This document shows, piece after piece, positions 22,935-40,913 of a DNA stretch of 64,000 nt. The stretch lies in NCBI GenBank assembly GCA_041650835.1, contig JBAZKL010000003.1, positions 291,682 to 355,681 on the forward strand, given 5' to 3'. A model generated the notes under the pieces. It was not told the origin of the DNA, ran no database searches, and saw nothing but the letters and a program-made list of their open reading frames with translations. Both the position numbers and the translations under genes were made by a program. This DNA is from Candidatus Omnitrophota bacterium. GTDB taxonomy: Bacteria; Omnitrophota; Gorgyraeia; Gygaellales; Profunditerraquicolaceae. The number at the start of each line of letters is the position of its first letter. Position 1 is the stretch's first letter.

Positions 22935-23090
22935 TCGGCTCTCGGTTATCAGCCAACACGGGTACCGAGCACCGAGTATCGAGCATCGATAATTGAGATA
23001 TGTGTCATTGCGAGGAGCCCGTCGAAGTTTTTCTGGCGGGCGACGAAGCAATCTTTTTAAACATGGCTAAAAAAACTATAGATAAGAAGC

Positions 23091-23128
23091 TAAGGTGACT
23101 GTCACGTTTTTTGTGACTGTCACCTTAG
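23091..23128 (+). terminator. Double-palindrome hairpin TAAGGTGACTGTCACG-TTTTTT-GTGACTGTCACCTTA (GGTGAC-N-GTCACC family)
   Basis: Inverted repeat with a T-rich loop, and each arm is itself a palindrome. Family members also at 23364-23386, 27319-27358, 27654-27693, 34455-34490 and 34990-35024. Confidence 0.5.
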
Positions 23129-23143
23129 CTGATCTCGTAAAAC

Positions 23144-23347
23144 ATGGCTAAGATAACCATAGATAAGAATAGATGTAAAGGCTGTCTTTTATGCATCCGC
23201 TTTTGCCCCAAGGGCTCATTGCTGGTGGATGAAGATTTAAATGCCCGGGGTATCCGGCCGGTCAAATTTAAAGATGATGCTGAGTGCCTGGGCTGTATGA
23301 TGTGCGCTCTCATGTGCCCGGATTGTTGTATTGAGGTTTTTAAATAG
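23144..23347 (+). CDS. korD: 2-oxoacid:ferredoxin oxidoreductase delta subunit (2x[4Fe-4S] ferredoxin)
   Basis: 67 aa with two CxxCxxCxxxCP clusters, immediately upstream of the alpha, beta and gamma subunits. Confidence 0.7.
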   Translation: MAKITIDKNRCKGCLLCIRFCPKGSLLVDEDLNARGIRPVKFKDDAECLGCMMCALMCPDCCIEVFK

Positions 23348-23414
23348 AAAGTCTCAAGTCGAAGCTCAGGTGACTGTCACCTGAGCTGTGCGACCTGTGA
23401 CCGGTGACTGTGCT

Positions 23415-24488
23415 ATGACTAAACGAATTCTAATGACAGGCAACGAGGCTATTGCTGCCGGAGCTCTCCAGGCGGGATGCCGCTTTTACGCGGGATATCC
23501 TATTACGCCTCAAAATGAGCTGATCGCCTATATGGCAAAATATATGCCGCAGGCAGGCGGAGTCTTCATCCAGGCGGAATCGGAATTGGCCGCGATCAAT
23601 ATGGTCTTCGGCGCATCTGCCGCGGGCGCGCGGGCGATGACTTCATCATCCAGCCCGGGGATGAGCCTGAAGCAGGAAGGCATCTCTTATATCGCGGGCG
23701 CTGAGTTGCCCGCGGTGATCGTGAACATGATGCGCGGCGGCCCCGGATTAGGCAATATCGCTCCTTCCCAATCGGATTATTTTCAGGCGACCCGCTGCGG
23801 GCACGGCGATTACCATTCGATCGTTTTAGCGCCTGCAACGGTGCATGAAGCCTATTATGGCATGAGAGACGCCTTTGATCTGGCGGATAAGTACCGTACC
23901 CCCGTTATTGTCCTGGGAGACGGGATGCTCGGTCAGATGATGGAGCCTTTAGAGCTCACTCAGGCAGCAGCTGAAAGTAGCGAGTATAAAAAAGACTGGG
24001 CATTGAGCGGATGCGCCGGCCGGCCGGCCAATGTCGTCAAATCGTTTTATTTGCATGAAGGAAAATTAGAGGAATTTAATTTACTTTTACAAAAGAAATA
24101 CAAGCGTATCAAAGAAAAAGAGCAGCGCGCTGAAAGTATCCTGACGGATGATGCCGAGATCATTTTGGTCGCCTATGGCTCAATGGCGCGGATCGCTAAA
24201 ACCGCGGTGAAAACTTTACGCGCTCAAGGCGTCAAAGCCGGATTGATCCGGCCGATCAGCTTATGGCCTTTTCCCGAAGCCGTATTCAAGAAATTAGCTG
24301 CCGGCAGGAAAAAAAGGTCGTTACTGGTTGTGGAAATGTCCTATGGACAAATGATCGAAGATGTCCGCTTATCAATAGGCGATAGGTTCCCGGTTGAGTT
24401 CCTGGGGCGCGGCGGCGGCGGAGTGCCGTCGGAAAAAGAGATCATCGTCAAGGTTAAGCATTTAACAGGCAAAAAATCACATCGATGA
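23415..24488 (+). CDS. korA: 2-oxoacid:ferredoxin oxidoreductase alpha subunit
   Basis: MTKRILMTGNEAIAAGALQAGCRFYAGYPITP is typical of the KorA/PorA N-terminus. Confidence 0.85.
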   Translation: MTKRILMTGNEAIAAGALQAGCRFYAGYPITPQNELIAYMAKYMPQAGGVFIQAESELAAINMVFGASAAGARAMTSSSSPGMSLKQEGISYIAGAELPAVIVNMMRGGPGLGNIAPSQSDYFQATRCGHGDYHSIVLAPATVHEAYYGMRDAFDLADKYRTPVIVLGDGMLGQMMEPLELTQAAAESSEYKKDWALSGCAGRPANVVKSFYLHEGKLEEFNLLLQKKYKRIKEKEQRAESILTDDAEIILVAYGSMARIAKTAVKTLRAQGVKAGLIRPISLWPFPEAVFKKLAAGRKKRSLLVVEMSYGQMIEDVRLSIGDRFPVEFLGRGGGGVPSEKEIIVKVKHLTGKKSHR

Positions 24489-25213
24489 ATAAAATATACA
24501 GCCACCCTCGAGCGTTACGCGCGTCATCCACGCACTATTGTCCCGGCTGCGGGCATGGGATAGCGCACCGGCTTGTCGCTGAAGTTATTGACGAGCTGGG
24601 CATCCGGGAGAGCGTGATCGCGGTAGCTCCCGTCGGCTGCGCGGTGGTCGCCTATGATTATTGGGATTTTGATTGTTCGGAAGCAGCGCACGGCCGGGCG
24701 CTGGCTGTGGCAACCGCGATAAAGCGCGTGCGGCCGCGGAATATTGTCTTTACCTATCAGGGCGACGGTGATCTGGCGGCGATAGGGACTAATGAGACTA
24801 TCCATGCCGCCAACCGCGGAGAAAAACTGACCGTCATTTTTATCAATAATGCCATTTACGGGATGACCGGCGGCCAGATGGCGCCGACAACGCTTTTGCA
24901 GCAAAAGACGGCAACGACCCCGCTGGGCAGGGACGCCGCGCTGCAGGGGTATCCGCTCAAAATCTCAGAAATGCTGGCTTTGTTGAACGGCGTTAAATAT
25001 GTCGAACGTGTTTCTATGCATTCGCCGCAGGAAGTAGTAAAAGCTAAAAAAGCGATTAAGCAGGCGTTCCAGAACCAGATCGACGGTATCGGCTTCTCGC
25101 TGGTCGAGGTGATATCTCCGTGCCCGACGTATTGGGAGATGCCGCCGGCGCAGGCCCTTGATTGGATAAAGAATACTATGCTCAAAGAATTTCCTTTAGG
25201 ACGGATCAAATGA
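24485..25213 (+). CDS. korB: 2-oxoacid:ferredoxin oxidoreductase beta subunit (TPP-binding)
   Basis: YCPGCGHG motif and GDG TPP-binding region; start overlaps the korA stop. Confidence 0.85.
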   Translation: MNKIYSHPRALRASSTHYCPGCGHGIAHRLVAEVIDELGIRESVIAVAPVGCAVVAYDYWDFDCSEAAHGRALAVATAIKRVRPRNIVFTYQGDGDLAAIGTNETIHAANRGEKLTVIFINNAIYGMTGGQMAPTTLLQQKTATTPLGRDAALQGYPLKISEMLALLNGVKYVERVSMHSPQEVVKAKKAIKQAFQNQIDGIGFSLVEVISPCPTYWEMPPAQALDWIKNTMLKEFPLGRIK

Positions 25214-25776
25214 CGGAGAAGATCATTATCGCCGGCGCCGGAGGACAGGGTATCATGCTTTTAGGCAAGATCCTGGCAGAGGCCGCGATGCGGGAAAACC
25301 GCTTTGTTACCTGGCTGCCCGCGTATGGCGCCGAAGTCAGGGGCGGGACAGCGCATTGTATGGTGATTATTTCCGATGAAGAGATCGGCTCTCCTTCGAT
25401 CAGTGTCGCCGACAGCTTGATCGTCATGAACGCTCCTTCATACGCGCGTTTTAAGCCGCGGCTTAAAACGAAAGGCCTGCTGGTGGGAAACAGTACTTTG
25501 GTGAAGAATAATTTAGCTGTGCATTCTTCTGATTTATGGTATCCTTTTACGGATATCGCCTTGAAGCTGGAGAATGTGAAAGTGGCGAATATGATCGCGT
25601 TGGGGTGCTTTATCGCCCGGCGCCCTATCGTTGAAGTTGAGAATATCGCGCGGGTGATCGAGGAAATAGCCCCCGCGCACAAAAAAGACCTCATTGAGAT
25701 AAATAAACGGGCGCTCTCAGCCGGTATCGCGCTCGTTACAGAGGCAAATAAAAAGTCAGGAGAAAAAAATGGTTAG
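25210..25776 (+). CDS. korC: 2-oxoacid:ferredoxin oxidoreductase gamma subunit
   Basis: MTEKIIIAGAGGQGIM gamma-subunit motif; start overlaps the korB stop. Confidence 0.8.
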   Translation: MTEKIIIAGAGGQGIMLLGKILAEAAMRENRFVTWLPAYGAEVRGGTAHCMVIISDEEIGSPSISVADSLIVMNAPSYARFKPRLKTKGLLVGNSTLVKNNLAVHSSDLWYPFTDIALKLENVKVANMIALGCFIARRPIVEVENIARVIEEIAPAHKKDLIEINKRALSAGIALVTEANKKSGEKNG

Positions 25777-27100
25777 GGTACGCTTTGCTCCCAGTCCGAC
25801 GGGAAATCTGCACATCGGCGGAGCGCGCACTGCGTTATTTAATTGGCTTTACGCGAAAGCAAAAAAGGGAATATTTGTTTTAAGGATAGAAGATACCGAC
25901 CGGGAGCGTTCAAAGAAGGAATACCTGGATGAGATCGTATACAGCTTGAAATGGCTGGGTTTTGAGTGGGATGAGATCTATTATCAGAGCGAGCGCTTTG
26001 AGATCTACCACCAGTACGCCAAAAAGCTGGTTGACGCGGGTTTAGCGTACGTGGCTTCCTCCGATGATGAACAGGCGCAGAAGATCGTTAATAAAAAACA
26101 AGATGCCATAATTTTTAAGGTCACACCCCAGAAGATCAAGATCAATGACCTGATCAGGGGAGAGATCGAGTTTGACGCTGAAACCATCAAAGACCAGGTC
26201 CTGATCAAATCCGACGGCACGCCGACCTATAATTTCGCCTGCGTGGTCGATGACGCCCAAATGAAAATAACTCATGTTATCAGGGGCGACGACCATATTT
26301 CCAATACTCCCAAGCAGATACTTTTATATAAAGCGCTGGGGTTCCCGGTGCCGGAATTCGCGCACCTTCCTTTAATATTATCAAAGGCAGGCGGCAGGCT
26401 TTCTAAGCGTAAAGGCGCCACCGCGATCTCGGAATTCCACGCGATGGGCTATCTTTCCGCGGCGCTGGACAATTATTTACTGCTCCTGGGATGGTCTCCG
26501 GGAGGAAACCGCGAGATCGTCAGTATGGATGAAGCGATCAAACTCTATGACCTGAAGAATATCAATAAGACAGCGGCGGTGCTTGACCTGGATAAGCTGG
26601 ACTGGATGAACAACCAGTATTTGAAAAATGAGGACCCTGAGAAGTTGACCGATGAAGTTATCCCTGCGTTAGTTGAGAAGAAATATATCGATAAAGATAA
26701 TTTTGATAGAAATTATGTGGTTTCTTTGGTAAAATTGTTCCAGGGGAGGCTTACGACGATCAGCGATTTTGCCGATTGGGCGGATTTCTTCTTTGTGCGG
26801 GAGCCGGTGATCGACCCGGCGGCGCAGGAGAAATTCTTATCGAAAGACCTCTCAAAAGAGTTCGGACTTTTTATTAAAAGGCTGGAGAGCTTAGAGGTTT
26901 ACGATATTGCCAATATTGAAGCGGGTTTCCGCGCGATGGCAAAGGAGCTCGATCTTGAGCCTAAGGTTTTAATTCATCCGATCAGAGTGGCCCTTACCGG
27001 CAAGACCATCGGCCCGGGCCTTTTTGAAGTTATCTATTATTTAGGTATAGAGCGGGTAAAAGCGCGGCTGGGTAAATTTATAAAAAAGGAGCAGGGATGA
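25769..27100 (+). CDS. gltX: Glutamyl-tRNA synthetase
   Basis: Class I HIGG (LHIGGART) and KMSKS-like (RLSKRK) motifs. Confidence 0.9.
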   Translation: MVRVRFAPSPTGNLHIGGARTALFNWLYAKAKKGIFVLRIEDTDRERSKKEYLDEIVYSLKWLGFEWDEIYYQSERFEIYHQYAKKLVDAGLAYVASSDDEQAQKIVNKKQDAIIFKVTPQKIKINDLIRGEIEFDAETIKDQVLIKSDGTPTYNFACVVDDAQMKITHVIRGDDHISNTPKQILLYKALGFPVPEFAHLPLILSKAGGRLSKRKGATAISEFHAMGYLSAALDNYLLLLGWSPGGNREIVSMDEAIKLYDLKNINKTAAVLDLDKLDWMNNQYLKNEDPEKLTDEVIPALVEKKYIDKDNFDRNYVVSLVKLFQGRLTTISDFADWADFFFVREPVIDPAAQEKFLSKDLSKEFGLFIKRLESLEVYDIANIEAGFRAMAKELDLEPKVLIHPIRVALTGKTIGPGLFEVIYYLGIERVKARLGKFIKKEQG

Positions 27101-27276
27101 AGACGAAGGGATTATGTATCGCTTTAGGCCTTTTTTACTGTCTGGTGTTGCTCGGCGGTTGTAACACGGTATGTAAGACCACCAAAGGCGCGGCAGAAGG
27201 CGCCAAAGAAGGCGTAAAAGAAGACTGGAAAGCGGCGCAGGGCGCTGACGCCTGGATGAAAAAGAATTTGTGGTAG
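27097..27276 (+). CDS. Small putative lipoprotein (59 aa)
   Basis: ATG overlaps the gltX stop (ATGA). Signal peptide with lipobox LLGGC and a Lys/Ala-rich mature part; below the ORF-track size cutoff. Confidence 0.4.
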   Translation: MKTKGLCIALGLFYCLVLLGGCNTVCKTTKGAAEGAKEGVKEDWKAAQGADAWMKKNLW

Positions 27277-27318
27277 GGTTGTAGATACCAGGCTTCGCTA
27301 TTCTCTGTAATTGTTTAA

Positions 27319-27365
27319 AGCAAGGTGACTGTCACGCTGTTTGTGATTGTCACCTTGCTTTTTTT
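27319..27365 (+). terminator. Rho-independent terminator GCAAGGTGACTGTCAC-GCTGTTT-GTGATTGTCACCTTGC + T7
   Basis: 16-bp stem of the GGTGAC-N-GTCACC family followed by a run of 7 T; it terminates the gltX and lipoprotein transcript. Confidence 0.6.
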
Positions 27366-27397
27366 AGAGTAGTTCATTTTTATATAGCTGCGCGCGA

Positions 27398-27650
27398 GCA
27401 AAGTCTAAAGTATAAAGTCTAAATATCAAAGGAAATTCAAAGATTAAAGATCAAATTTTAAATTTCCTACCTGCCGGCAGGAAGAATCAAAGCCATGTCA
27501 TTCCCGCGAGCCCGCAAAAGCTTTAGTGGCGGGCGAAAGCGGGAATCCAAAGAAATGCAAGAATAAAGGTTCAATTTTAAAATTTAGCCTTAAGCCTTAA
27601 ATCTTCCTTTGTTATTTATACTTTAGACTTTAAAATTAACCACATCATAT
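27398..27650. repeat. MITE-like imperfect palindromic element, copy 3, with about 90-bp internal insertion
   Basis: Arms match copies 1 and 2 (CAAAGGAAATTCAAAG...CCTTAAATCTTCCTTTGTTATTTATACTTTAGACTTTAAAAT). Centre contains CCTGCCGGCAGG plus an extra hairpin TGTCATTCCCGCGAGCCCGC...GCGGGCGAAAGCGGGAAT. Confidence 0.5.
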
Positions 27651-28014
27651 CAAAGCAAGGTGACTGTCACGCTTTTTGTGACTGTCACCTTGCTTGCCCT
27701 AAAATAACTCTTAAATGATACCATGAAAGTGCTATAATACGCATATGTGACACAGGGGGGACAATGAAGCTGGACTTGGTCAATTTTTAGGCAATCTTCT
27801 ATGCAGGTAGGGGGTTGCCGTTTTTGTTATGATGATTAAGTGATGTGTTACCCGAATTCCCCCATGCTGCCGAGATGGGCATATAATGAGATTTATATCG
27901 CTTGTAGGGATGGCTTGTTCTGTCCCCACAAATGGAAAAGGGACTACTCTGGGTTTAGGAAAATATGACTGTAACCCAATAATAAAAGATTAAATTTCTC
28001 AAAAAGGTGGAACT

Positions 28015-29052
28015 ATGAATGAAAAATGTCCTAATTGTGGTAATCCATTTGAAGGTAATAACCTACAAAAATGTTTAAAATGTGGCATTGATATTTTACA
28101 ATATACTCGAGAGAAATTAGAAGAAATGGAAAATGAGAAAGAATTATTAGTAAATAATGAAAGGCGGATAGCGAATAATATTTTTCAGAAAACTTGGAAT
28201 AAGTTAATCAAGGTGATATGGTTTTGGATTGGTGTTATTGTAGTTTTATGGGGGTTTGCAGTTGGGCTTAGTTTAAGAGAAATCTATAAAAATGTAGTAA
28301 ATGTTACTAAGAATCAAATTATAGAACTTATAACTAAACAATTTGAAGAGCCTCGCATAAGACAAACTTTAACTGAGGTAGCTAATACTGAAGCCGAAGA
28401 TATTCTTGCAAATCAAGTTCGACCAGAAATAGATAGTTTTAAAGAAGGAATAAACAAAGAATTAGATTCAGTTAAACGATTTTCAGAGGATTTAAAAACA
28501 AAATATACAATTGATTATAACACTTTTAATCTTGAAGTTGCTAAATTAAAAGACCGAAACAGGCTAATAGAATTGGGGGATATGGTTATTGCAAACAGAG
28601 ATGTGGCTGCTTATAAAGAATTGGAGCGCATTGCTAAAGATTCTGTAAAACCAGAATTGATGTCGGCGGCAGTGTCAGAAATAAAGCGAGTTAAGGTATT
28701 TTTTGCGACAATGACTAGTGTGAAAGGGGCGTCTATTTCATATAAAGGTCCCCTGGGGAGTGAATTAAAAGATAATGATATGACTAGGGATAGACTTATT
28801 TTTAATTTAAAGAATGATAATTGGTTAATTAGGGTAAAAGCAGCTCAATTGCTTCAGGGTAAAAAAGAAAAAAGTTCCGCAGAAGCCCTTTTAGAAAGTA
28901 TGAATAATGATCCTGATATGGAAGTAAGAAAAGAAGCTTTGGAATCATTTGATGCGATAACAGGGCACATAAGCAATGATGTCTTTGGTTTTGAAGCCGC
29001 GAATGAATGGTGGACTCAAAATAAGTTCGAGGTTGATAAAAAATTAAAATAA
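28015..29052 (+). CDS. Hypothetical protein: N-terminal zinc ribbon, one TM helix, C-terminal HEAT-like repeats
   Basis: CPNCGNPFEGNNLQKCLKCG zinc ribbon, a hydrophobic segment (VIWFWIGVIVVLWGFAVGL), and C-terminal LIRVKAAQLL / EVRKEALESF HEAT-like units. AT-rich compared with the flanking core genes. Confidence 0.45.
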   Translation: MNEKCPNCGNPFEGNNLQKCLKCGIDILQYTREKLEEMENEKELLVNNERRIANNIFQKTWNKLIKVIWFWIGVIVVLWGFAVGLSLREIYKNVVNVTKNQIIELITKQFEEPRIRQTLTEVANTEAEDILANQVRPEIDSFKEGINKELDSVKRFSEDLKTKYTIDYNTFNLEVAKLKDRNRLIELGDMVIANRDVAAYKELERIAKDSVKPELMSAAVSEIKRVKVFFATMTSVKGASISYKGPLGSELKDNDMTRDRLIFNLKNDNWLIRVKAAQLLQGKKEKSSAEALLESMNNDPDMEVRKEALESFDAITGHISNDVFGFEAANEWWTQNKFEVDKKLK

Positions 29053-29188
29053 TTTAAGAAGACAGGAGAGTTCTTACTTCTTTTGAATTAAGCTGGTTTT
29101 AGAATAAGAGTAGAGTTGTAGAAAAAGTAAATTAAAACATTAATTTGGTTAACCCTTGATGTTAATTTTTACTTGACAAGGTTAATGT

Positions 29189-29521
29189 ATGGATATATAC
29201 TTTAGTAGCAATAAAGATATGAGAATTTTTAATTCGGATAGAGAACTGCAAAAGAAATATGGTCATCTTTCGAAAAAGATTCAGCAAAGATTAGTAGAGT
29301 TGAGAGCGGTTAATTTTTTAGCTGATATTTCTGATTCACCTCCTCCAAGGCGTCATAAATTGGTTAATGATCGTGAAGGTCAATGGGCTGTTGATCTTAA
29401 TGGAAACAAACGATTGATTTTTGAACCAAGCAATGATCCAATTCCTAAAACTGAAACTGGGGCAATTGATTTAACTAAGGTTACCGAAATAACTATTATC
29501 GAAGTAGCGGATTATCATTAA
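29189..29521 (+). CDS. higB: HigB-family (RelE/ParE superfamily) toxin
   Basis: LVNDREGQWAVDLNGNKRLIFEP...VADYH resembles the HigB 'plasmid maintenance system killer' family (C-terminal DYH); the partner HTH gene follows 3 nt downstream. Confidence 0.6.
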   Translation: MDIYFSSNKDMRIFNSDRELQKKYGHLSKKIQQRLVELRAVNFLADISDSPPPRRHKLVNDREGQWAVDLNGNKRLIFEPSNDPIPKTETGAIDLTKVTEITIIEVADYH

Positions 29522-29523
29522 TT

Positions 29524-30627
29524 ATGACGGATAAATCGAAACCTTTCAAATATAGCCCTGATTATGCTGTTCCTCCCGGTGTTACTATTAGTGAATTACT
29601 TAATCATTTAGGAATGACTCAGGTTGAACTAGCCGATAGAACGGGTCGGCCAGAGAAAACAATAAGCGATATAGTAAATGGTAAACAAGGAGTAACTCCG
29701 GAAACTGCGTTACAGTTTGAGCGAGTACTTGGTATGTCAGCAAGCTTTTGGAATAATCTTGAAAAAAATTATCGAGAATCTTTAGTTCGTATTGAAGAGG
29801 TTAAAGCTTTAGAAAAACAAATTAATTGGCTAGAAAACTTTCCAATTGAAAGCATTATTAAAAATGGATGGATGCAGAAACATGATAATGCAGTGGCTCA
29901 ATTGCAAGAGTTGTTATCTTTTATGGGAGTTGCATCACCGAAGGAACTGAGCGTTAGTTGTTCTTCCGCGATTTTCCGAAAATCGAAGAAGATTCAAACA
30001 GATCCTTGGACGCTTTGTGCATGGCTTAGAAAGGGAGAGTTAGAGGCACAATCGGTTGAGTGTAAACCCTATGATAAAAATAAATTTAAGGAATCCTTAT
30101 ATAAAATTCGGGAAATGACAATTACTCCTGATACTCCATCAATTTTACCTCATTGGGGAAAGCTTTGTGCAGAATCTGGAGTGGCGTTAGTTATCATTCA
30201 AGAATTGCCTAAATTAAAAGTCAATGGGGCCACCCGTTGGTTAAAAGATAAGGCAGTAATTCAGCTCTCCCTTTTAAATAAATATGAAGATATTTTATGG
30301 TTTTCTTTTTTTCATGAAGCAGCACATATCTTGTTGCATGGAAGAAAGGATGTTTTTATTGAGGATAGAAATAAATTTGATCAAAATGACATGGAGAAAG
30401 AAGCGGATCAATTTGCTGAAGACTTTCTTGTCCCTCGTAACGAGTACAATGAATTTATATTAAAAGACGATTTTAACCATTCTACCGTAAATAATTTTGC
30501 AAAAAAGATAGGTGTTGGTCCGGGTATTGTAGTAGGAAGGCTTCAGCATGAAGGACTAATTAAATATAACGAACTTGCTAGTTTTAAACCTCGACTTTGC
30601 TGGAAACAACCCTCCAAGAATAACTAA
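29524..30627 (+). CDS. HigA-like HTH antitoxin fused to ImmA/IrrE-family HExxH metallopeptidase domain
   Basis: N-terminal XRE HTH (ISELLNHLGMTQVELADRTGRPEKTISDIVNG) and a C-terminal region with an HEAAH zinc-peptidase motif (FFHEAAHILLHG), COG2856-like. Confidence 0.6.
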   Translation: MTDKSKPFKYSPDYAVPPGVTISELLNHLGMTQVELADRTGRPEKTISDIVNGKQGVTPETALQFERVLGMSASFWNNLEKNYRESLVRIEEVKALEKQINWLENFPIESIIKNGWMQKHDNAVAQLQELLSFMGVASPKELSVSCSSAIFRKSKKIQTDPWTLCAWLRKGELEAQSVECKPYDKNKFKESLYKIREMTITPDTPSILPHWGKLCAESGVALVIIQELPKLKVNGATRWLKDKAVIQLSLLNKYEDILWFSFFHEAAHILLHGRKDVFIEDRNKFDQNDMEKEADQFAEDFLVPRNEYNEFILKDDFNHSTVNNFAKKIGVGPGIVVGRLQHEGLIKYNELASFKPRLCWKQPSKNN

Positions 30628-31043
30628 CAAAATAAGAAATTAAAAGATAACAAGACGTTTTCTATAACTATCTTAGAAAGACGGTGACTGCTTACATTCA
30701 AGTTTCTAATGCAACAATTTTAGTAATATGGAGTTCCGGGGACACATTACTTAATTCAAAAAGCAGATTCCCGCTAAAAGCATGCGGGAATGACAAATAG
30801 GAGTGAAATGGGGGACGTATTCGGTTCTCGATAACCGAACACCGAGCACCGATAACCCGGAAGCGGTGACAGTTACTTTGTGGACAGGCATTTTAGTGGG
30901 CTTTTAATATTGACATAAGGTAAATAAAAGGTTATGCTTTGATGAATAATCTAGTCAATTGTTCGGATTTCTATGCGTAGTAAATTTGGAGGTATACGAA
31001 ATGTAAGCGTATACCTTTTTTTATTTTAAGGAGGATACAAATT

Positions 31044-34000
31044 ATGGAGAATATAAAGAAGGCGGTATTCTTAGCCGGTATTGCGGCTGTGTGTTTTTTG
31101 TGTACCCCCGCATTCGCTTTAGTTGACAATAGCCAAGCGGTAATCGAGCAGCAAGCTGTTTCATCACAGGACACACAGCTTCCATCCCAGCCCCAACAGC
31201 CTCAAACCCCCGCGTTTGCCCCGGGAGAGCTTATCGTAAAGATCAAAGACGGAAAAACCATGGATGAACTCAGTGAGCTAAACGCTCAATATGACGTTAC
31301 TTCCATAGAAGGGATTTTCCAAAGCCCGGGTAGCCCCGAGGATATGCTTAAGAGCCTGCAACAGAAATTAGCCGGCCTTGATTCTCAACACGATAGCTGG
31401 TATTGGCAGATGGATAAAGATTCCAAGGAATATAAAGATTATGTCGCCAAGATAGAAGCGCAAAAAGAAACACTGAAAAACCAGATCAGCGCCGAAGAAG
31501 AGCTTATCGCTCATTTAGCCCAGAGACAATCCCGGGCGGATAACTCAGTAACTACTCCCGATTTAACAAACACCTATATTCTTAAAACCAATAGCTCAGT
31601 CAATATCGTCGCGATAGCTGAAGATTACTCCGCTCATCCCGCGGTAGAATACGCAGAGCCGAATTATGTGCGTAAAGTAGAGCAATCTTCTCCTATCCTT
31701 GGGCCTCCTCCTCTGCCCAGCTGGCCATATGTCCTGCCTAATGACGCGTATGTAGACCCTAACCATACTAATACCTGGACTAAAGGCGCCTGGGGGCAGG
31801 CCTACGAAGACATGTGGGGCCTCAAGAAGATCCAGGCAGATAAGGCTTGGCGATTATCGTTAGGTGAGGGGGTGATCGTAGCTGTAATCGATACCGGAGT
31901 TGATCATACCCACGAAGATATATCCGGTAATATCTGGATAAATACAAGAGAAAAACCCGGTAACGGCATAGATGACGACGGTAACGGTTATGTGGATGAT
32001 GTCAGGGGTTGGGATTTTGTCAATGATAGTAATGACCCCAAGGATGGTTTTGGCCATGGCACCCACTGCGCGGGCACCATAGCCGCAATAGGCAATAATA
32101 AGATCGGCATTATCGGACTATCTCCCAAAGCAAAGATCATGCCGGTAAAGGGGCTTGATGATTTCGGTTACGGCACTGACGCTGCATTAGTCAAATGTAT
32201 TTATTATGCCGCCAATAACGGCGCGGATGTTTTAAGCAATTCCTGGGGCGGGTCGGGAAGCAGCCAAGTAATAACAGATGCCGTTAATTATGCCTATGCG
32301 AAAGGATGCGTCGTGGTAGCATCGGCGGGCAATTCAAGCGCCGATGTTAAATATTTTTCCCCGGCCAATATTGATAAGGTTATAGCAGTCGCAGCTACCG
32401 GCCAAAATGATAAAGTATGCCTTTTTTCTAATTTCGGCAATAAAATTGATGTGACCGCTCCGGGAGGCGATGATACTCTCACATCTCTTTACGTCAATTT
32501 CAATAATGTCCTTTCATTATTAGCCCCTAATTCATATCTGGCAAAAAATTATGGCGCGGATATCGTTGGGTATAAATACCTGAAATTAGCCGGCACATCC
32601 ATGGCCTGCCCGCATGTTTCGGGCCTGGCGGCCCTGCTTATAGCCAAATACCCCGCGGATACAAATAAACAGATCAGAGGCAGGATCATGGAGACCGCTG
32701 ATGTATTATCTCAGGAGCCTTTGTATTCAGCGGGGCTCTTGGGTTCGGGGAGGATCAATTCTTATCGTGCTTTAAGCGAATCGTTTAAGCCATATTTTAA
32801 ATTTAAGGATCTGTCTCTTAAAGAGCTCAGCGGAGACGCCGACCAGATACCGGAATCCGGAGAAAGAATAAAGCTCGTCATTAAGCTGGAATCTATCGGC
32901 AAGGATATAAGCGTGGTGAAGGGCTCAATCAGCACAGACACAGACAGCCTGTACATTTCCCGTATAGACATTCCGGTTTCCTCGTTCTATAGGTCTCAAG
33001 ACGGCACAATGGATAATGCAAACAGCCCATTTGTATTTACGGTCGGCAAAGTAGAATACCAATCGCCGGTGAATATCAAGCTGACAATTAATGTCGGCGG
33101 ATATATCCAGATGTTGAATTTAAAGATAAATTTAGGCATCAGGCAGCTGCCTATTGATTACAACACCTATAAGATCGGCGCGTATTCTCTGTATAATAAT
33201 AAAATAGCCTGGGACCGTACTACGGTGGACAGCCATGTCGGTTATGTTTATAGCGGAGAGATCTATCTTTATGACATTAAGAGTAACCAGGTTAAGCAAA
33301 TATCCGCGAATGACGGCCGCATAAAAGCCTGGCCGGCAATGTATGAAAACAAAATTGCCTGTTTGGACAAGAGCTCGCCCTATTCGAATTGGAACGTGTT
33401 CCTGTATGACCTTACCGCGAAAACAGGCAAGCTCATAACCCAGGATTCCTTTAATCATCGGGATCCCGCTATCTACAAGAATAAGATCGTATGGTCTGAT
33501 GACCGTAACGGTAATAATGATATTTACCTGTATGATATCGATAAAAAGCAGGAGAGAAGGATCACGACAAATCCCGCCGGCCAGATCACTCCGAAAATTT
33601 ACGGAAATAAGATCGCGTGGATAGATTTTCGCAATGGCCCGTATGACTGGTACCGGTATGATGTTTATGTCTATGATCTGGATAAGAACGAAGAGAAGCT
33701 GATTCCCCGGACGGGGAGCAATGTCATTTGGCCGATTGATATTTTCGGTAATAAGGTCGTATGGGCGGATGATAATAATATTTATCTTTACGACTTAGAT
33801 AAGAATGAGCAGAAACTTATCAGCTCCCGTAACTATCAGTATTACATTACTTCTTTGCGGATCTACGGAAATAAAATAATCTGGGATGACAGCGTTTCCG
33901 GGAATTCAGTACAGGTGTTCATTTACGATTTAAATACCAACCAAAAAACAATGGTTACAAAAGATCAGTACGCGGTTTCGCCGATGATTTATGCCAGGAA

Positions 34001-34355
34001 TATTACCTGGCTTAACTGGAACGATGATCTTTATAAGCCGCATATGTATATTACCGAGATCCCCGATATTACTCCTCCCATCGGCTCAATAAGAATAAAT
34101 AACGGCGTTCTTTACACAAGGTTTCCCATAGTCATGCTTAATTTATATGCTCAAGATGATGAAAGCGGTATGGGAAATGGCGCGCAAATGCAATGTTCTA
34201 ATGACGGCGCGCGATGGTCAGCTCCCGGGCCATACGTAACAAGCAAATTGTGGTTTTTGACACCGGGGATCGGGTTAAAGATCGTATACGTGCGATTTAA
34301 GGATGCGGCGGGAAATTGGTCGCGTGTCTATTCAGCATACATAAAGGTATACTAG
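31044..34355 (+). CDS. Secreted subtilisin-like serine protease (peptidase S8) with C-terminal beta-propeller repeats
   Basis: Signal peptide and the catalytic triad motifs VAVIDTGVD (Asp), HGTHCAGTIAA (His) and GTSMACPHVSGLAALL (Ser), followed by at least 8 roughly 45-aa IYLYDxxxxxxxxI(T/S)...GNKI(V/A)W repeats. Confidence 0.85.
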   Translation: MENIKKAVFLAGIAAVCFLCTPAFALVDNSQAVIEQQAVSSQDTQLPSQPQQPQTPAFAPGELIVKIKDGKTMDELSELNAQYDVTSIEGIFQSPGSPEDMLKSLQQKLAGLDSQHDSWYWQMDKDSKEYKDYVAKIEAQKETLKNQISAEEELIAHLAQRQSRADNSVTTPDLTNTYILKTNSSVNIVAIAEDYSAHPAVEYAEPNYVRKVEQSSPILGPPPLPSWPYVLPNDAYVDPNHTNTWTKGAWGQAYEDMWGLKKIQADKAWRLSLGEGVIVAVIDTGVDHTHEDISGNIWINTREKPGNGIDDDGNGYVDDVRGWDFVNDSNDPKDGFGHGTHCAGTIAAIGNNKIGIIGLSPKAKIMPVKGLDDFGYGTDAALVKCIYYAANNGADVLSNSWGGSGSSQVITDAVNYAYAKGCVVVASAGNSSADVKYFSPANIDKVIAVAATGQNDKVCLFSNFGNKIDVTAPGGDDTLTSLYVNFNNVLSLLAPNSYLAKNYGADIVGYKYLKLAGTSMACPHVSGLAALLIAKYPADTNKQIRGRIMETADVLSQEPLYSAGLLGSGRINSYRALSESFKPYFKFKDLSLKELSGDADQIPESGERIKLVIKLESIGKDISVVKGSISTDTDSLYISRIDIPVSSFYRSQDGTMDNANSPFVFTVGKVEYQSPVNIKLTINVGGYIQMLNLKINLGIRQLPIDYNTYKIGAYSLYNNKIAWDRTTVDSHVGYVYSGEIYLYDIKSNQVKQISANDGRIKAWPAMYENKIACLDKSSPYSNWNVFLYDLTAKTGKLITQDSFNHRDPAIYKNKIVWSDDRNGNNDIYLYDIDKKQERRITTNPAGQITPKIYGNKIAWIDFRNGPYDWYRYDVYVYDLDKNEEKLIPRTGSNVIWPIDIFGNKVVWADDNNIYLYDLDKNEQKLISSRNYQYYITSLRIYGNKIIWDDSVSGNSVQVFIYDLNTNQKTMVTKDQYAVSPMIYARNITWLNWNDDLYKPHMYITEIPDITPPIGSIRINNGVLYTRFPIVMLNLYAQDDESGMGNGAQMQCSNDGARWSAPGPYVTSKLWFLTPGIGLKIVYVRFKDAAGNWSRVYSAYIKVY

Positions 34356-34520
34356 TTCGAGTTATCCTAATTCCGGGAATGGTGACAGTCACTTTTGGGG
34401 ACAGGCATTTTGGTGAGCGATAACCGACAACCGAGTACCGATAACCCGAACACGGTGACAGTCACAAAAAACGTGACAGTCACCGTTTTCTTGGATAAAT
34501 CATAGACGTTTTATTATTTC

Positions 34521-34919
34521 TTACTTTTGCGAGTTTTTTGATTCAAATACGATCTGTCTTAAAGCAAACTGTATTTCTTCGCCGGAATTGCCGGTTTCAA
34601 GTAACGTCAGAATATCTTTTAAGCCGGTTTCAGTCTTGATAGTCCCATTCTCTTGTGTGCGCAGAATGATGGCAAAACCGGCGATGACCGTATCCGCTTG
34701 ACGATCGAGATTTCTCACCGACAGCAGGTATTCACGTATGCGCTCAGGAGACGCTTCGATGCCTGAGATCGCCATCTTTTCGATCTCACGCCATTGCGCG
34801 TCCTGGTTCTCCGCTTCTTCGGAGCTGAGCTCCGGGGCGACAGCACTCGGAATCCTGCCTGGGGGACGTTCTGTTACGGATATTTTCTCAAGTCTCGTAT
34901 ACTGGGGGAGTGAGCGCAT
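34521..34919 (-). CDS. Hypothetical protein (orphan) flanked by composite repeats
   Basis: ORF 34521..35000 trimmed to the internal Met (MRSLPQYTRLEK...) because the upstream 80 nt are a copy of the GTGACAGTCAC composite repeat; no recognisable domain. Confidence 0.3.
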   Translation of the reverse strand: MRSLPQYTRLEKISVTERPPGRIPSAVAPELSSEEAENQDAQWREIEKMAISGIEASPERIREYLLSVRNLDRQADTVIAGFAIILRTQENGTIKTETGLKDILTLLETGNSGEEIQFALRQIVFESKNSQK

Positions 34920-35169
34920 ATCAATCCCGCCGCAAGAACGGTGACAGTCACTTTTGGGGACAGGCATTTTGGTGAGCGATACGAAAACGGTGACAGTCAC
35001 AAATTACGTGACAGTCACCGTTTTCTCAGGTATAATTAAAATTCGATTCCACGAGTATATCTCGCCAGTTAGTATTAGTAAATTTGACATATTACCCTGT
35101 CCCTCGTCGCCGACGATGTTGAATGAGAGCGACTCGGGATTGGCAAAAGAGATAAGTAAAATTAGGTTT

Positions 35170-35241
35170 TGCCCTGTCGTCTAATCGGTAGGACTTCAGA
35201 TTCTGGATCTGACTATCATGGTTCGATTCCATGCGGGGCAG
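35170..35241 (+). tRNA. tRNA-Gln (anticodon CTG)
   Basis: U1-A72 acceptor (TGCCCTG/CGGGGCA), D-arm GTCTAATCGGTAGGAC, anticodon loop TTCTGGA, T-arm ATGGTTCGATTCCAT, discriminator G. Confidence 0.8.
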
Positions 35242-35422: not shown

Positions 35423-35773
35423 TTGGCGAACATTAGCTGCTTTTATTATGTAACCGAATCCGGGAAATCGGCGGTAAGAGATTTTATTGATTCTTTGGAT
35501 GCAAGCAGCCAGAGAAAATTCTTCTTTGCCAAAAGCTTGCTTGAGGAATTTGGGCATAAGTTACCTCAACCACACGCTAAATATATAGGAGATGAGATAT
35601 TTGAGTTGAGGTTTAAAGGGCAAGAAGGCAATATCAGGGCCTTATATTTTTTCTTTCATCAAGACAAGGTCTTATTTACCAACGGATTTATTAAAAAGAC
35701 CGCTAAAGTGCCGGAAAAAGAGAAGAAGCTGGCTATTGAGAGAAGAAAAGCGTTTCTTGAAAGACATAAATAA
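35423..35773 (+). CDS. Gp49-like/HigB-type type II toxin (RelE/ParE superfamily)
   Basis: IRALYFFFHQDKVLFTNGFIKKTAKVP matches the phage Gp49-like (COG4679) toxin signature. A TTGACA-17-TATGCT promoter lies at about 35372-35400. Confidence 0.65.
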   Translation: MANISCFYYVTESGKSAVRDFIDSLDASSQRKFFFAKSLLEEFGHKLPQPHAKYIGDEIFELRFKGQEGNIRALYFFFHQDKVLFTNGFIKKTAKVPEKEKKLAIERRKAFLERHK

Positions 35774-35785
35774 GGAAGGTGCGCT

Positions 35786-36130
35786 ATGAATATGGAAAGG
35801 GTTGATGAACACTTAAAAGAGAAATTAAAGGATCCGTATTTTAAAGAACTTTATGAACTCCAAGAGCAGAAACTTGATATCGTAAAGCGGGTTATTGACT
35901 ATAGGGTTAAAAATAAGCTGACTCAAGGTCAATTAGCTAAAAAAGCGAAGGTTACCCAACAGCACATCTCTAAGATTGAAAACGGAGATTTCAGCAGTAT
36001 AGTAACCTTGGAGAAGATTTTGCTGTTTATCGGCTATACCGTGAAAATCCAAGCTGTTCCCCTTAGCAATAAAGTCAGGAATAGCATTGAGCGTCTTGTT
36101 CGGGCTAAGCATGGACTTCAGTTTGCTTAA
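35786..36130 (+). CDS. XRE-family HTH antitoxin (HigA-like)
   Basis: LTQGQLAKKAKVTQQHISKIENGDFS HTH; 13 nt downstream of the toxin gene. Confidence 0.65.
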   Translation: MNMERVDEHLKEKLKDPYFKELYELQEQKLDIVKRVIDYRVKNKLTQGQLAKKAKVTQQHISKIENGDFSSIVTLEKILLFIGYTVKIQAVPLSNKVRNSIERLVRAKHGLQFA

Positions 36131-36867: not shown

Positions 36868-36948
36868 GCGCGGGTGGTGGAATGGCAGACACGCAAGCAT
36901 GAGGGGCTTGTGCCGAGAGGTGTGGGGGTTCAACTCCCCCCCTGCGCA
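36868..36948 (+). tRNA. tRNA-Leu (anticodon GAG), type II
   Basis: Acceptor GCGCGGG/CCTGCGC, anticodon stem CAAGC/GCTTG with loop ATGAGGG (U33, G37), long variable arm, T-arm GGGGGTTCAACTCCCCC, discriminator A. Confidence 0.8.
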
Positions 36949-40835: not shown

Positions 40836-40913
40836 GGCCCCATCGTCTAGCCTGGCCTAGGACGAATGGTTCTCAGCCATTAAACACCGGTTCAAATCCG
40901 GTTGGGGCTACCA
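40836..40913 (+). tRNA. tRNA-Glu (anticodon CTC), CCA encoded
   Basis: GGCCCCATCGTCTAGCCTGGCCTAGGAC D-arm as in bacterial tRNA-Glu, anticodon loop TTCTCAG, T-arm CCGGTTCAAATCCGG, 3' ...GGGGCTACCA. Confidence 0.8.

What the first reader, a model, noticed from the sequence alone, without database searches (positions are those of the whole stretch)
23091..35024. Family of intergenic double-palindrome elements built on GGTGAC-N-GTCACC
At least seven loci share an almost identical 11-bp dyad GTGAC(A/T)GTCAC. The members are:
- 23091-23128, paired copies;
- 23364-23386, a single perfect 23-bp palindrome GCTCAGGTGACTGTCACCTGAGC;
- 27319-27358 and 27654-27693, paired copies;
- 34379-34392 plus 34455-34490, paired copies;
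- 34942-34955 plus 34990-35024, paired copies;
- 30858-30870, degenerate.
In the paired copies each arm is itself palindromic, so a locus can fold as one long hairpin (some followed by T-runs, i.e. terminators) or as a cruciform. Identical stems at so many sites suggest a REP-like dispersed element or a repeated operator for a dimeric DNA-binding protein. An independently evolved terminator would not be expected to repeat this way.
Basis: seen in the sequence. Interest (0 to 1): 0.6.

Follow-up and report, generated by a model that had tools for sequence, protein, structure and literature searches.

The report
REP-like hairpin repeats with RAYT transposase
The repeated GTGAC-N-GTCAC palindromes are real and are a family of small REP/REPIN-like hairpin repeats, in an uncultivated Omnitrophota bacterium, whose matching single-copy tyrosine transposase (RAYT) lies elsewhere in related genomes and probably this one: a known kind of element in a new family and phylum.

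Summary
GTGACWGTCAC occurs 12 times exactly (0.01 expected), plus two one-mismatch copies, all between 23.09 and 35.03 kb. A profile search finds five 31-bp doublets (GGTGACTGTCAC-GYTTTTT-GTGACTGTCACC): three on +, two on -. Each folds as a 43-45 nt DNA hairpin (-16 to -19 kcal/mol) with a central T.T mismatch. Outer flanks differ between copies but stay complementary.

The REP-like reading is supported. In eight Omnitrophota loci, a ~200-aa Y1/HUH transposase has this doublet 25-40 nt upstream of its ATG. Its stop codon lies inside AAAATGCCTGTCCC(C)AAAAGTGACTGTCACC. Its best fold match is E. coli TnpA-REP (4ER8). The gene keeps the same neighbours across genomes. One such locus comes from the window's own assembly and matches its composition.

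The window has no RAYT, but it holds three copies of that RAYT 3' end, two fused to a doublet. Related genomes carry the doublet about once per 3-5 kb, mostly outside ORFs. More distant relatives lack it where the window has it. A 94%-identical relative shows that one window copy replaces 2.3 kb and truncates a gene.

Most copies are not terminator-like, and an operator role does not fit. The same dyad also flanks a 20-25%-identical RAYT clade in Chloroflexota, which is unexplained. Verdict: new member of a known kind.

The parts
23088..23130 (+). Doublet 1 (REPIN-like hairpin): agctaaGGTGACTGTCAC-gtttttt-GTGACTGTCACCttagct. It sits between dxs and korD. Its first TGA terminates a duplicated pseudo-start of korD.
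   Evidence: nhmmer E 8e-15. DNA fold -18.7 kcal/mol, z -9.6. In relatives L238/L239 the dxs stop abuts the korD start.
23051..23169 (+). 38-bp direct duplication (23051-23088 and 23132-23169, 84% identical) of the korD RBS plus its first 9 codons, bracketing doublet 1.
   Evidence: family D9 and the sequence. The mechanism is unexplained.
23363..23387 (+). Singlet: a perfect palindrome aGCTCAGGTGA-CTG-TCACCTGAGCt between korD and korA (11-bp stem, 3-nt loop).
   Evidence: Fold -12.1 kcal/mol, z -5.8. korD overlaps korA in relative L239.
27317..27361 (+). Doublet 2, with one arm mutated (GTGATTGTCAC). It lies 40 nt after the small ORF that follows gltX and is followed by a T7 run, so it may have been co-opted as a terminator.
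   Evidence: Fold -17.5 kcal/mol, z -8.8.
27653..27695 (+). Doublet 3, at the core/GC-poor island boundary upstream of the HEAT-repeat gene.
   Evidence: Fold -19.3 kcal/mol. GC drop at 28-32 kb.
30865..30901 (-). Degenerate copy of the RAYT right end (RE): reverse complement GCCCACTAAAATGCCTGTCCACAAAGTAACTGTCACC.
   Evidence: D5; alignment with RAYT 3' ends.
34377..34490 (-). Composite 1. On the - strand it reads doublet 4 (34448-34490), then a 30-bp CGATAACC-type repeat, then the RE block (34377-34422) = ...CACCAAAATGCCTGTCCCCAAAAGTGACTGTCACC. This is a RAYT-less fusion of left and right ends. It lies between convergent genes: subtilase and the gene fragment.
   Evidence: (D1, D4, D6). It is shared with the 94%-identical relative L161 at 2121-2240.
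34521..34919 (-). 132-aa ORF between the two composites. It is the 3' fragment of an 850-aa gene that is intact in relative L161.
   Evidence: L161 ORF 2233-4785, whose C-terminus matches. No Pfam hit.
34936..35025 (-). Composite 2: doublet 5 (34983-35025) directly fused to the RE block (34936-34981). It sits exactly at the junction where 2.3 kb present in L161 is missing.

Best explanation
These are REP/REPIN-type elements: short non-autonomous hairpin repeats derived from, and most likely mobilised in trans by, a single-copy REP-associated tyrosine (Y1/HUH) transposase (RAYT) encoded elsewhere in the genome.

**Shown: the full unit.** It has three parts.
- A left end (LE), which is the 31-bp doublet. 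It folds as one hairpin with a central T.T mismatch on the RAYT sense strand.
- The RAYT gene.
- A right end (RE), AAAATGCCTGTCCC(C)AAAA-GTGACTGTCACC, which contains the RAYT stop codon.

**Shown: what the window carries.**
- Three solo LE doublets.
- One solo singlet.
- Two LE-RE fusions that lack the gene.
- One decayed RE.
- All lie in intergenic DNA. Several split junctions that are tight in relatives, or mark the edges of accessory genes.

**Inferred: the mechanism.** As for E. coli TnpA-REP and IS200/IS605 TnpA, the enzyme probably recognises the folded single-stranded hairpin. The conserved T.T mismatch would give strand specificity. The enzyme would then cut next to the hairpin and copy or move it.

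**Inferred: side effects.** Individual copies have likely been co-opted as hairpin barriers or terminators (27317-27361), as stop codons, or as a -35-like hexamer (35008-35036).
For: **Statistics and anatomy**
- The motif count and the doublet/singlet structure are established.
- The window copies fold as DNA hairpins of -16.4 to -19.3 kcal/mol with z -5.4 to -9.6.
- In 233 distinct relatives the flanks are complementary beyond the core: mean 4.8 bp, against 1.9 bp with shuffled partners and a maximum of 2.17 in 200 shuffles.
- 280 of 282 doublets keep the T..T or A..A centres.

**Transposase link**
- Clustering the ORFs of 117 hairpin loci singled out a PF01797 Y1_Tnp protein next to hairpins.
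- Its Omnitrophota family has 111 hits.
- It carries the LE doublet 25-40 nt upstream of the ATG, and the RE with the TGA stop inside the dyad, in L004, L120/L152, L121, L122, L206, L210 and L229. L227 keeps the RE but its LE is decayed.
- A 36%-identical paralogue (L179) is flanked by an unrelated hairpin, which indicates specific pairing of transposase and repeat.

**The protein is RAYT-like**
- HUH (H60, H62) and the Y120-I-x-x-N-P motif are invariant.
- The only NCBIfam hit is NF047646 REP_Tyr_transpos, matched over its full length.
- The best PDB match by sequence is 4ER8.
- The best PDB match by fold is also 4ER8, at E 8.8e-11 and TM 0.74, against about 1e-5 for IS608/ISDra2 TnpA.

**The gene behaves like a host gene.** The same ComM-orf88-RAYT neighbourhood occurs in four genomes at about 60-75% identity, with one copy per contig.

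**Link to this genome.** The window contig and the P0031 RAYT contig come from the same assembly (and the same Logan run). Tetranucleotide correlation between them is 0.95, and both have the same CCCC variant of the RE.

**Abundance and extragenic bias**
- 282 doublets occur in 910 kb of related metagenome DNA.
- At least 27 lie on the 76-kb contig that carries RAYT P0010, and at least 13 on a 69-kb contig.
- 21% lie inside long stop-free stretches, against 88% of all bases.

**Gain and loss**
- Relatives L238 and L239 have no dyads in 17 kb, and their dxs, korD and korA genes are adjacent.
- L161, 94% identical, lacks composite 2 and instead has 2.3 kb including the rest of the truncated gene.
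Against: - No RAYT is encoded in the 64-kb window (tblastn; the weak hit at 4476-4676 lies in thrS/infC). The assignment of RAYT P0031 to this genome rests on co-assembly and composition only.
- Copy number in this genome looks low and clustered: 14 dyads in 12 kb, none in the other 52 kb, and none in the 20-kb flanks of the candidate RAYT loci outside the RAYT itself. A classical high-copy dispersed REP population is therefore shown only for relatives.
- There is no unpaired GTAG or CGTC tag, which is characteristic of most described REP families (PMC3733652).
- The RAYT scores below NCBIfam's equivalog cut-off: 62-76 bits against 80.
- No direct evidence of cleavage or transposition exists. 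The 38-bp duplication at korD and the deletion at composite 2 are not the signatures expected of simple Y1 transposition.
Confidence: 0.8

Rival explanations
1. The hairpins are primarily RNA-level elements (intrinsic terminators, or mRNA-stabilising or processing hairpins) selected at each site. Their sequence similarity would be incidental, or due to copying of a useful module.
For: - The stems are strong.
- Doublet 2 follows the last ORF of the dxs-kor-gltX gene string and is followed by T7.
- Composite 1 lies between convergent genes.
- Omnitrophota loci L002 and L011 have A-run/T-run flanks, like bidirectional terminators.
- REPs in other bacteria are reported to be mostly downstream of genes and probably transcribed (PMC3733652).
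Against: - Only 39 of 279 (T-form strand) and 22 of 279 (A-form strand) related doublets have at least 5 T in the 8 nt after the stem. A common consensus has a T-run before and an A-run after the stem, on both strands.
- The terminator scan reports none of the window copies.
- Doublet 1 and the singlet sit inside what is a tight operon junction in relatives, 16 and 28 nt upstream of start codons.
- A terminator does not need an invariant 11-mer, a conserved T.T mismatch, or a constant association with a transposase gene's ends.
Confidence: 0.1
2. The dyads are operators or binding sites on double-stranded DNA for a dimeric DNA-binding protein, for example one of the HTH antitoxin-like proteins in the window, or a nucleoid/segregation factor analogous to MatP-matS (GTGACRNYGTCAC, from my own knowledge).
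For: - Perfect 5+1+5 dyad symmetry.
- A fixed 18-bp spacing in doublets.
- Clustering in a 12-kb stretch that contains two HTH_3 proteins.
- The same half-sites as matS (recalled from memory, not tested).
- The same dyad is kept in two phyla although the RAYTs are only 20-25% identical. This could point to another reader of the motif.
Against: - Outer flanks differ between copies but stay complementary. The loop-closing pairs covary in Chloroflexota copies (CT..AG or TT..AA). Both observations indicate intrastrand pairing, which an operator does not need.
- Copies occur in both orientations, downstream as well as upstream of genes, next to unrelated genes in hundreds of loci, with no recurrent neighbour other than the RAYT.
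- In low-copy genomes the only copies within 20 kb are the ones at the RAYT gene.
Confidence: 0.05
3. The elements are decaying relics (MITE/PATE-like) of an ordinary IS200/IS605-type insertion sequence that is no longer active. The copies in the window would spread only by local duplication and recombination, not by a domesticated RAYT.
For: - The LE-RE fusions look like internally deleted IS copies.
- Copies in this genome are few and clustered.
- Several are mutated (27343, 30866; L161 GTGATAGTCAC).
- Composite 2 is associated with a deletion rather than a clean insertion.
Against: - The transposase is single-copy and syntenic across genomes, not multi-copy.
- By fold and profile it is closest to TnpA-REP, and the Omnitrophota proteins have no NCBIfam IS200 hit.
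- Related genomes hold hundreds of near-identical doublets without extra transposase copies.
- Composite 2 arose since a split at about 94% nucleotide identity, so the system was recently active or recombinogenic.
Confidence: 0.05

Closest known systems
REP/REPIN-RAYT systems of Proteobacteria (E. coli REP/BIME with TnpA-REP, PDB 4ER8; Pseudomonas fluorescens REPINs; PMC3116915, PMC5581495, PMC3733652)
   Same: - Short extragenic palindromes that occur as singlets and as doublets folding into one larger hairpin.
- A single-copy, syntenic Y1/HUH transposase whose gene is flanked by the repeats.
- Copy number that varies widely between related genomes.
- Clusters that are mosaic with other repeats.
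- Best structural and profile match of the protein to TnpA-REP.
   Different: - There is no unpaired GTAG/CGTC tag.
- Each REP unit is itself a perfect 5+1+5 dyad. The doublet is therefore both a direct and an inverted pair, and it keeps a central T.T mismatch in 280 of 282 copies.
- The RAYT's last codons and stop codon are part of the conserved right end.
- The protein falls below NCBIfam's RAYT equivalog cut-off.
- The host phylum is Omnitrophota, with a sister family in Chloroflexota.
- Copy number in this genome is apparently low and clustered.
IS200/IS605 insertion sequences and their non-autonomous derivatives (IS608, ISDra2; PATE/MITE-like elements)
   Same: - A Y1/HUH enzyme with subterminal hairpins at both ends on one strand.
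- A mismatched or extrahelical base in the stem as a recognition feature (own knowledge of IS608).
- Internally deleted LE-RE derivatives, like composites 1 and 2.
   Different: - The transposase is not multi-copy.
- No tnpB is present.
- The fold match to IS608/ISDra2 TnpA is five orders of magnitude weaker than to TnpA-REP.
- The solo LE hairpins, not whole elements, are what is amplified.
Paired DNA uptake sequences of Neisseria/Pasteurellaceae and matS/SlmA-type palindromic binding sites (own knowledge)
   Same: A short conserved word kept across a wide taxon, often as inverted pairs that form hairpins after genes. The half-sites GTGAC/GTCAC are identical to matS.
   Different: - No link to competence genes or to MatP/SlmA was found.
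- The element is tied to a transposase gene.
- The spacer is 1 nt, not 3 nt.
- Flank covariation indicates a folded single strand.

Membership tests
REP/REPIN-RAYT system | Short (about 20-45 nt) palindromic repeats able to fold as a stable hairpin | tested here: met
   The five doublets fold at -16.4 to -19.3 kcal/mol (z -5.4 to -9.6), and the singlet at -12.1 kcal/mol.
REP/REPIN-RAYT system | Extragenic location | tested here: met
   All window copies lie between called genes. Of the related doublets, 21% lie in long stop-free stretches, against 88% of all bases.
REP/REPIN-RAYT system | Many copies dispersed around the genome | tested here: inconclusive
   This genome shows 14 dyads, all within 12 kb of the 64-kb window, plus the probable RAYT locus. 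Related genomes carry at least 27 doublets on 76 kb and at least 13 on 69 kb. The whole genome was not available.
REP/REPIN-RAYT system | RAYT gene (Y1/HUH: HUH motif plus catalytic Tyr) flanked by the repeats | tested here: met
   Seen in eight Omnitrophota loci. H60/H62 and Y120 are invariant. Not present in the window itself. The link to this genome is by co-assembly and composition.
REP/REPIN-RAYT system | RAYT single-copy and vertically inherited (host-gene-like), not IS-like | tested here: met
   The same ComM-orf88-RAYT neighbourhood occurs in L004, L120 and L121 at about 70-75% identity. L122 (about 60% identity) has ComM followed directly by the RAYT, with no orf88 called. Each cluster was seen on 1-4 contigs. 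No phylogenetic congruence test was done.
REP/REPIN-RAYT system | Conserved unpaired GTAG (or CGTC) tetranucleotide at one end of the REP (PMC3733652) | tested here: not met
   The flanks beyond GGTGAC...GTCACC are variable and paired. No GTAG/CGTC tag is present.
REP/REPIN-RAYT system | Protein passes the curated RAYT model (NCBIfam NF047646, cut-off 80 bits) | tested here: not met
   Scores are 62-76 bits. It is the only hit and is matched over its full length. The best fold match is nevertheless 4ER8 at E 8.8e-11.
REP/REPIN-RAYT system | RAYT binds and cleaves the REP hairpin; the REPIN is mobile | not testable with these tools
   The evidence is indirect only: the elements are absent from the dxs-korD-korA junctions in L238/L239, and composite 2 is absent from the 94%-identical L161.
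IS200/IS605 insertion sequence | Several identical full-length copies per genome; match to the IS200 profile | tested here: not met
   There is one syntenic copy per contig. The Omnitrophota proteins have no NF033573 hit.
Intrinsic (Rho-independent) terminators | G+C-rich stem directly followed by a T-run | tested here: not met
   No window copy is reported by the scan. T-rich tails occur in 14% and 8% of 279 relatives on the two strands. Only 27317-27361 has a clear T7 tail.

The most novel reading that the evidence does not exclude
The identical 11-nt dyad GTGAC-W-GTCAC is the recognition core of RAYT-flanking hairpins in two phyla. In Omnitrophota it forms a T.T-mismatched direct doublet. 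In Chloroflexota class Anaerolineae it forms a perfect A..T hairpin, present in more than 100 species-level genomes. The two RAYT clades share only 20-25% identity, while a 66%-identical Chloroflexota RAYT uses a symmetrically changed dyad (GTGCGACGCAC).

If this is neither chance nor simple transfer, it implies one of two things. There may be an ancient REPIN-RAYT lineage with an unusual symmetric mode of stem recognition. Alternatively, a second, host-encoded reader of the dyad may make these repeats functionally important, for example at the 5' ends of genes in Anaerolineae.
Probability: 0.15. Interest if true: 0.7.

Novelty: new member of a known kind. Interest (0 to 1): 0.42.

Why it matters
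- It extends REP/REPIN-RAYT systems, studied almost only in Proteobacteria, to the uncultivated phylum Omnitrophota, with a sister family in Chloroflexota. My full-text searches found no paper on RAYTs or REPINs in either phylum, apart from one mention of GTAG repeats in Chloroflexi (PMC3733652).
- The family gives a clean picture of the whole unit: left-end doublet, RAYT, and a right end that includes the stop codon.
- The window contains gene-less left-end/right-end fusions. These are the intermediates expected if REPINs descend from the ends of an IS200-like element.
- One copy marks a recent 2.3-kb deletion that truncated a gene. Others split an operon that is compact in relatives. The repeats therefore visibly reshape this small genome.
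- For annotation, the repeats explain spurious ORF extensions (MPVPKSDCH...) and a pseudo-start of korD.

Tried and rejected
- **Rfam.** Gathering and E-value modes gave nothing but chance miRNA hits on the hairpins.
- **Literature search for the 11-mer.** Only primers and unrelated sequences turned up.
- **tblastn of four RAYTs against the window.** No gene was found. The weak hit at 4476-4676 is inside thrS/infC.
- **The 132-aa ORF between the composites.** I considered that it might be a degenerate RAYT or a cargo gene. It has no Pfam hit and turned out to be the 3' end of an 850-aa gene.
- **Integron attC/cassette reading.** I considered this because cassette-like TA modules lie between repeats. 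I dropped it because there is no integrase, no R'/R'' boxes, and the ends belong to a Y1 transposase.
- **Assembly or adapter artefact.** Rejected because of taxon specificity, variable loops and flanks, and presence in many independent assemblies.
- **Phage vector for the cross-phylum sharing.** There were 0 matches in 2.9 million viral contigs.
- **L107's RAYT.** It is flanked by different direct repeats and was not counted as support.
- **Crude ORF-distance analysis in Chloroflexota loci.** It is noisy and I used it only qualitatively.

Full report

Yes. GTGACWGTCAC occurs 12 times exactly in the 64-kb window, against 0.01 expected from dinucleotide-preserving shuffles. Allowing mismatches adds two one-mismatch copies, at 27343 and 30866. 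All 14 copies lie between 23,091 and 35,024; the remaining 52 kb has none.

The 'paired copies' are one conserved 31-bp unit, GGTGACTGTCAC-G(T/C)TTTTT-GTGACTGTCACC, with an invariant 18-bp spacing of the two dyads. A profile built from 190 related copies finds exactly five such doublets in the window:

| Doublet | Position | Strand |
|---|---|---|
| 1 | 23089-23129 | + |
| 2 | 27319-27359 | + |
| 3 | 27654-27694 | + |
| 4 | 34449-34489 | - |
| 5 | 34984-35024 | - |

The profile finds no others.

As single-stranded DNA each doublet folds into one 43-45-nt hairpin of -16.4 to -19.3 kcal/mol (z -5.4 to -9.6). The central T.T (or A.A on the other strand) is the only mismatch in four of the five. 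Doublet 4 also has one unpaired position in each outer flank.

The 4-6 bp outside the core differ between copies (ctaa/ttag, agcaa/ttgct, aaaac/gtttt) but are complementary within each copy.

**2. What surrounds the elements?**

The gene order is xseA, xseB, dxs, [doublet 1], korD, [singlet], korA, korB, korC, gltX, small ORF, [doublet 2 ... doublet 3]. Next come a HEAT-repeat protein, a HigB-like protein and an HTH/M78 protein, then [decayed copy], an S8 subtilase and [composite 1]. The order ends with a 132-aa ORF on the - strand, [composite 2], a tRNA, a Gp49/HTH toxin-antitoxin pair and a second tRNA.

The 'single' dyads at 34381 and 34940, and the decayed one at 30866, belong to a longer conserved block, GGTGACAGTCACTTTTGGGGACAGGCATTTTGGTGAGC (D5/D6).

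Rfam has no family for any of this. A full-text search for the 11-mer found nothing relevant.

**3. Relatives elsewhere, and the protein link.**

Nearly all are Chloroflexota of class Anaerolineae, plus four Omnitrophota.

- The Anaerolineae form is a perfect hairpin, a-GGTGACAGTCAC-YT-NNN-AR-GTGACTGTCACC-t, whose loop-closing pairs covary (CT..AG or TT..AA).
- The Omnitrophota form is the window's form, with T..T centres and loop GYTTTTT.

All-against-all clustering of the ORFs in those loci showed no dominant neighbour. It did show one small family sitting right next to hairpins in both phyla. These are proteins of about 200 aa that match Pfam Y1_Tnp (IS200-like).

The Omnitrophota member (L004) has 111 homologues; every one that carries a taxon name is Omnitrophota. 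I examined eight distinct Omnitrophota loci: L004, L120/L152, L121, L122/L123, L206, L210, L227 and L229. In them the gene has:

- a T-form doublet 25-40 nt upstream of its ATG (decayed in L227);
- a 3' end inside the block AAAATGCCTGTCCC(C)AAAA-GTGACTGTCACC, with the TGA stop inside the dyad.

A 36%-identical paralogue (L179) is flanked by an unrelated hairpin. This argues for specific transposase-repeat pairs.

Several lines of evidence identify the protein as a RAYT:

- The HUH histidines and the Y-I-x-x-N-P tyrosine motif are invariant.
- Its only NCBIfam hit is the REP-associated tyrosine transposase model. The match covers the full length but scores below the equivalog cut-off, 62-76 bits against 80.
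- Its only PDB sequence hit is E. coli TnpA-REP, 4ER8.
- An AlphaFold model (pLDDT 74; core 79-95 over residues 11-110 and 71-89 over 111-140) matches 4ER8 at E 8.8e-11. IS608/ISDra2 transposases match at about 1e-5.

In L004, L120 and L121 the gene sits in the same neighbourhood, ComM-like ATPase then an 88-aa ORF then RAYT, at about 70-75% identity. In L122 (about 60% identity) ComM is followed directly by the RAYT, and no 88-aa ORF is called there. That is the host-gene-like behaviour described for RAYTs (PMC5581495).

**4. Connection to this genome.**

The window has no RAYT (the one weak hit lies in thrS/infC). The window contig is a 370-kb contig of ENA assembly ERZ27247363.

Two RAYT contigs come from the same assembly. 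One of them (P0031, L122) also co-occurs with the window sequence in Logan run SRR8542065. It has a tetranucleotide correlation of 0.95 with the window's core part, and it shares the CCCC variant of the right-end block.

The three long blocks in the window, read on the - strand, align with the RAYT 3' ends over about 30 nt and not beyond. In two of them a doublet lies immediately upstream on the same strand. Those two are therefore left end plus right end without the gene: miniature, non-autonomous derivatives of the RAYT unit.

**5. Do they behave like REPs?**

The fetched DNA gives these figures:

- There are 282 doublets in 910 kb, and 280 of them have T..T or A..A centres.
- At least 27 lie on the 76-kb contig that carries RAYT P0010, and at least 13 on a 69-kb contig.
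- Only 21% lie inside stop-free stretches of 120 or more codons, although 88% of bases do.
- In 233 distinct copies, complementary flanks extend 4.8 bp on average, against 1.9 bp when partners are shuffled.

So the family reaches REP-like density in some Omnitrophota. In the window's genome the known copies are few and clustered, and the 20-kb flanks of L120 and L122 have copies only at the RAYT itself.

**6. Evidence of gain, loss and rearrangement.**

Two relatives, L238 and L239, have 71-73% KorA identity and the same gene order. In both, the dxs stop abuts the korD start. In L239 korD overlaps korA; in L238 korD is uncalled but ends just at the korA start. Neither has a dyad in 17 kb. The window's 210-bp and 68-bp gaps filled with repeats are therefore insertions.

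Locus L161 is about 94% identical to window 32254-34935.

- It shares composite 1.
- Where the window has composite 2 (90 bp), L161 has 2.3 kb that completes an 850-aa gene.
- The window's 132-aa ORF is only the 3' end of that gene.
- L161 keeps just GTCACCGTTTTCTC at the right junction.

Composite 2 thus arose, together with a deletion, since these lineages split.

**7. Mechanism.**

*Shown:*
- the family and its hairpin;
- the covarying flanks and the conserved mismatch;
- the fixed relation to the two ends of a RAYT gene;
- amplification in relatives;
- presence/absence differences between relatives.

*Inferred:* by analogy with TnpA-REP and IS200/IS605 TnpA (my own knowledge of those systems, plus 4ER8 as the top structural match), the enzyme recognises the folded single strand. 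The T.T mismatch marks the 'top' strand, which is the RAYT sense strand at all loci. Cleavage next to the hairpin then allows copying or movement.

*Not explained:* the 38-bp duplication of the korD start around doublet 1 (D9), the deletion at composite 2, and the local clustering.

**8. Rivals.**

- *Terminators.* Only 14% and 8% of 279 relatives have T-rich tails on the two strands. A common consensus has T-runs before and A-runs after the stem. The scan reports none of the window copies. Doublet 2 (T7 tail) and composite 1 (between convergent genes) may well be co-opted.
- *Operator.* This is contradicted by flank covariation, by both orientations, by unrelated neighbours, and by the restriction of copies to the RAYT locus in low-copy genomes.
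- *Ordinary decaying IS.* This is contradicted by the single syntenic transposase and the RAYT-type fold.

**9. Comparison with known systems.**

It works like a REP/REPIN-RAYT system and meets most defining features. Two features were tested and failed:

- There is no GTAG/CGTC tag (PMC3733652).
- The protein scores below the NCBIfam equivalog threshold.

Its peculiarities are these:

- Each REP unit is itself a perfect dyad.
- The central mismatch is conserved.
- The RAYT stop codon lies inside the right end.

I file it as a new family (member) of a known kind.

**10. An open oddity.**

A large Chloroflexota RAYT family (2,267 hits at E <= 1e-20; some are named RayT by JGI) is only 20-25% identical to the Omnitrophota one. 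It is nevertheless flanked by the same dyad in L001, L059, L240 and L242. A 66%-identical member (L241) uses GTGCGACGCAC instead.

No copy exists in 2.9 million viral contigs. Whether this reflects ancient descent, transfer, convergence or a second reader of the dyad is open.

Noticed in passing
window 23051-23088 and 23132-23169: A 38-bp direct duplication (84% identical) of the korD ribosome-binding region plus its first 9 codons brackets doublet 1. The upstream pseudo-start reads MAKKTIDKKLR and stops at the TGA of the hairpin. This is not the target duplication expected for a Y1 transposase.
   Followed up: partly
window 34521-34919 (-) ; L161 2233-4785 (-): The 132-aa ORF is the 3' remnant of an 850-aa gene of unknown function that is intact in a 94%-identical relative. 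The longer 159-aa ORF call (to 35000) runs through the repeat and gives the spurious peptide ...MPVPKSDCH....
   Followed up: yes
window 22929-22990, 30820-30864, 34409-34453: A second repeat family rich in CGATAACC/ACCGAG words. It is attached to the decayed RE at 30865 and lies inside composite 1. An inverted pair of it overlaps the end of dxs.
   Followed up: no
window 23003-23050, 27496-27545, about 30770-30800: A third family of hairpins of the type TGTCATTGCGAGG...CGAAGCAATC / GTCATTCCCGCGAG...CGGGAATCC. It resembles palindromes I recall from many environmental genomes.
   Followed up: no
window 27401-27465 / 27573-27637: A 65-nt AT-rich inverted repeat (75% complementary) lies between doublets 2 and 3. 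The gltX-HEAT intergenic region is thus a nested mosaic of at least three repeat types.
   Followed up: no
window 28000-32000 and 48000-58000: GC content drops from about 50% to 37% (HEAT, HigB-like and HTH/M78 genes) and to 33-34% (48-58 kb), which suggests acquired islands. Doublets 2 and 3 sit at the first boundary. The stretch from gltX to the GGDEF response regulator is 10 kb here and 4.5 kb in relative L238, with different genes.
   Followed up: partly
window 35008-35036 (+): The second arm of doublet 5 supplies GTGACA as a -35-like hexamer, 17 nt from TATAAT (11 of 12 matches). It lies 134 nt upstream of the tRNA at 35170. This is a pattern match only.
   Followed up: no
window 12578-12737; 1132-1561; 35170-35241; 36868-36948; 40836-40910: A 6S RNA and six tRNA genes. 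The Gp49/HTH_3 toxin-antitoxin pair (35423-36130) lies between two tRNAs and is replaced by other genes (a GIY-YIG-like ORF) in relative L161.
   Followed up: no
Chloroflexota loci L001-L117 (e.g. L003 7434, L070 1387, L082 7756, L028 1387): In Anaerolineae the perfect hairpins often lie 10-25 nt upstream of a Shine-Dalgarno sequence plus ATG. Many long ORFs end at the TGA inside the hairpin. L001 5660-5771 carries a 23-bp tandem array of dyads next to its RAYT.
   Followed up: partly
L241 9960-10000 and 10600-10680: A Chloroflexota RAYT, 66% identical to the GTGACAGTCAC-associated ones, is flanked by hairpins built on GTGCGACGCAC. That is the same architecture with symmetric changes in both half-sites, as if protein and dyad co-evolved.
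   Followed up: no
L130, L124, L210, L233 (metagenome loci): The right-end block also exists as a 41-bp perfect palindrome, ATGCCTGTCCCCAAA-GTGACTGTCAC-TTTGGGGACAGGCAT, with the dyad at the hairpin tip. This is a second amplified element type in the high-copy genomes.
   Followed up: no
L238 about 7880-7940: In this relative, korD carries an in-frame insertion of cccgccaaagcggg-type palindromic repeats. This is another example of small repeats invading this operon.
   Followed up: no
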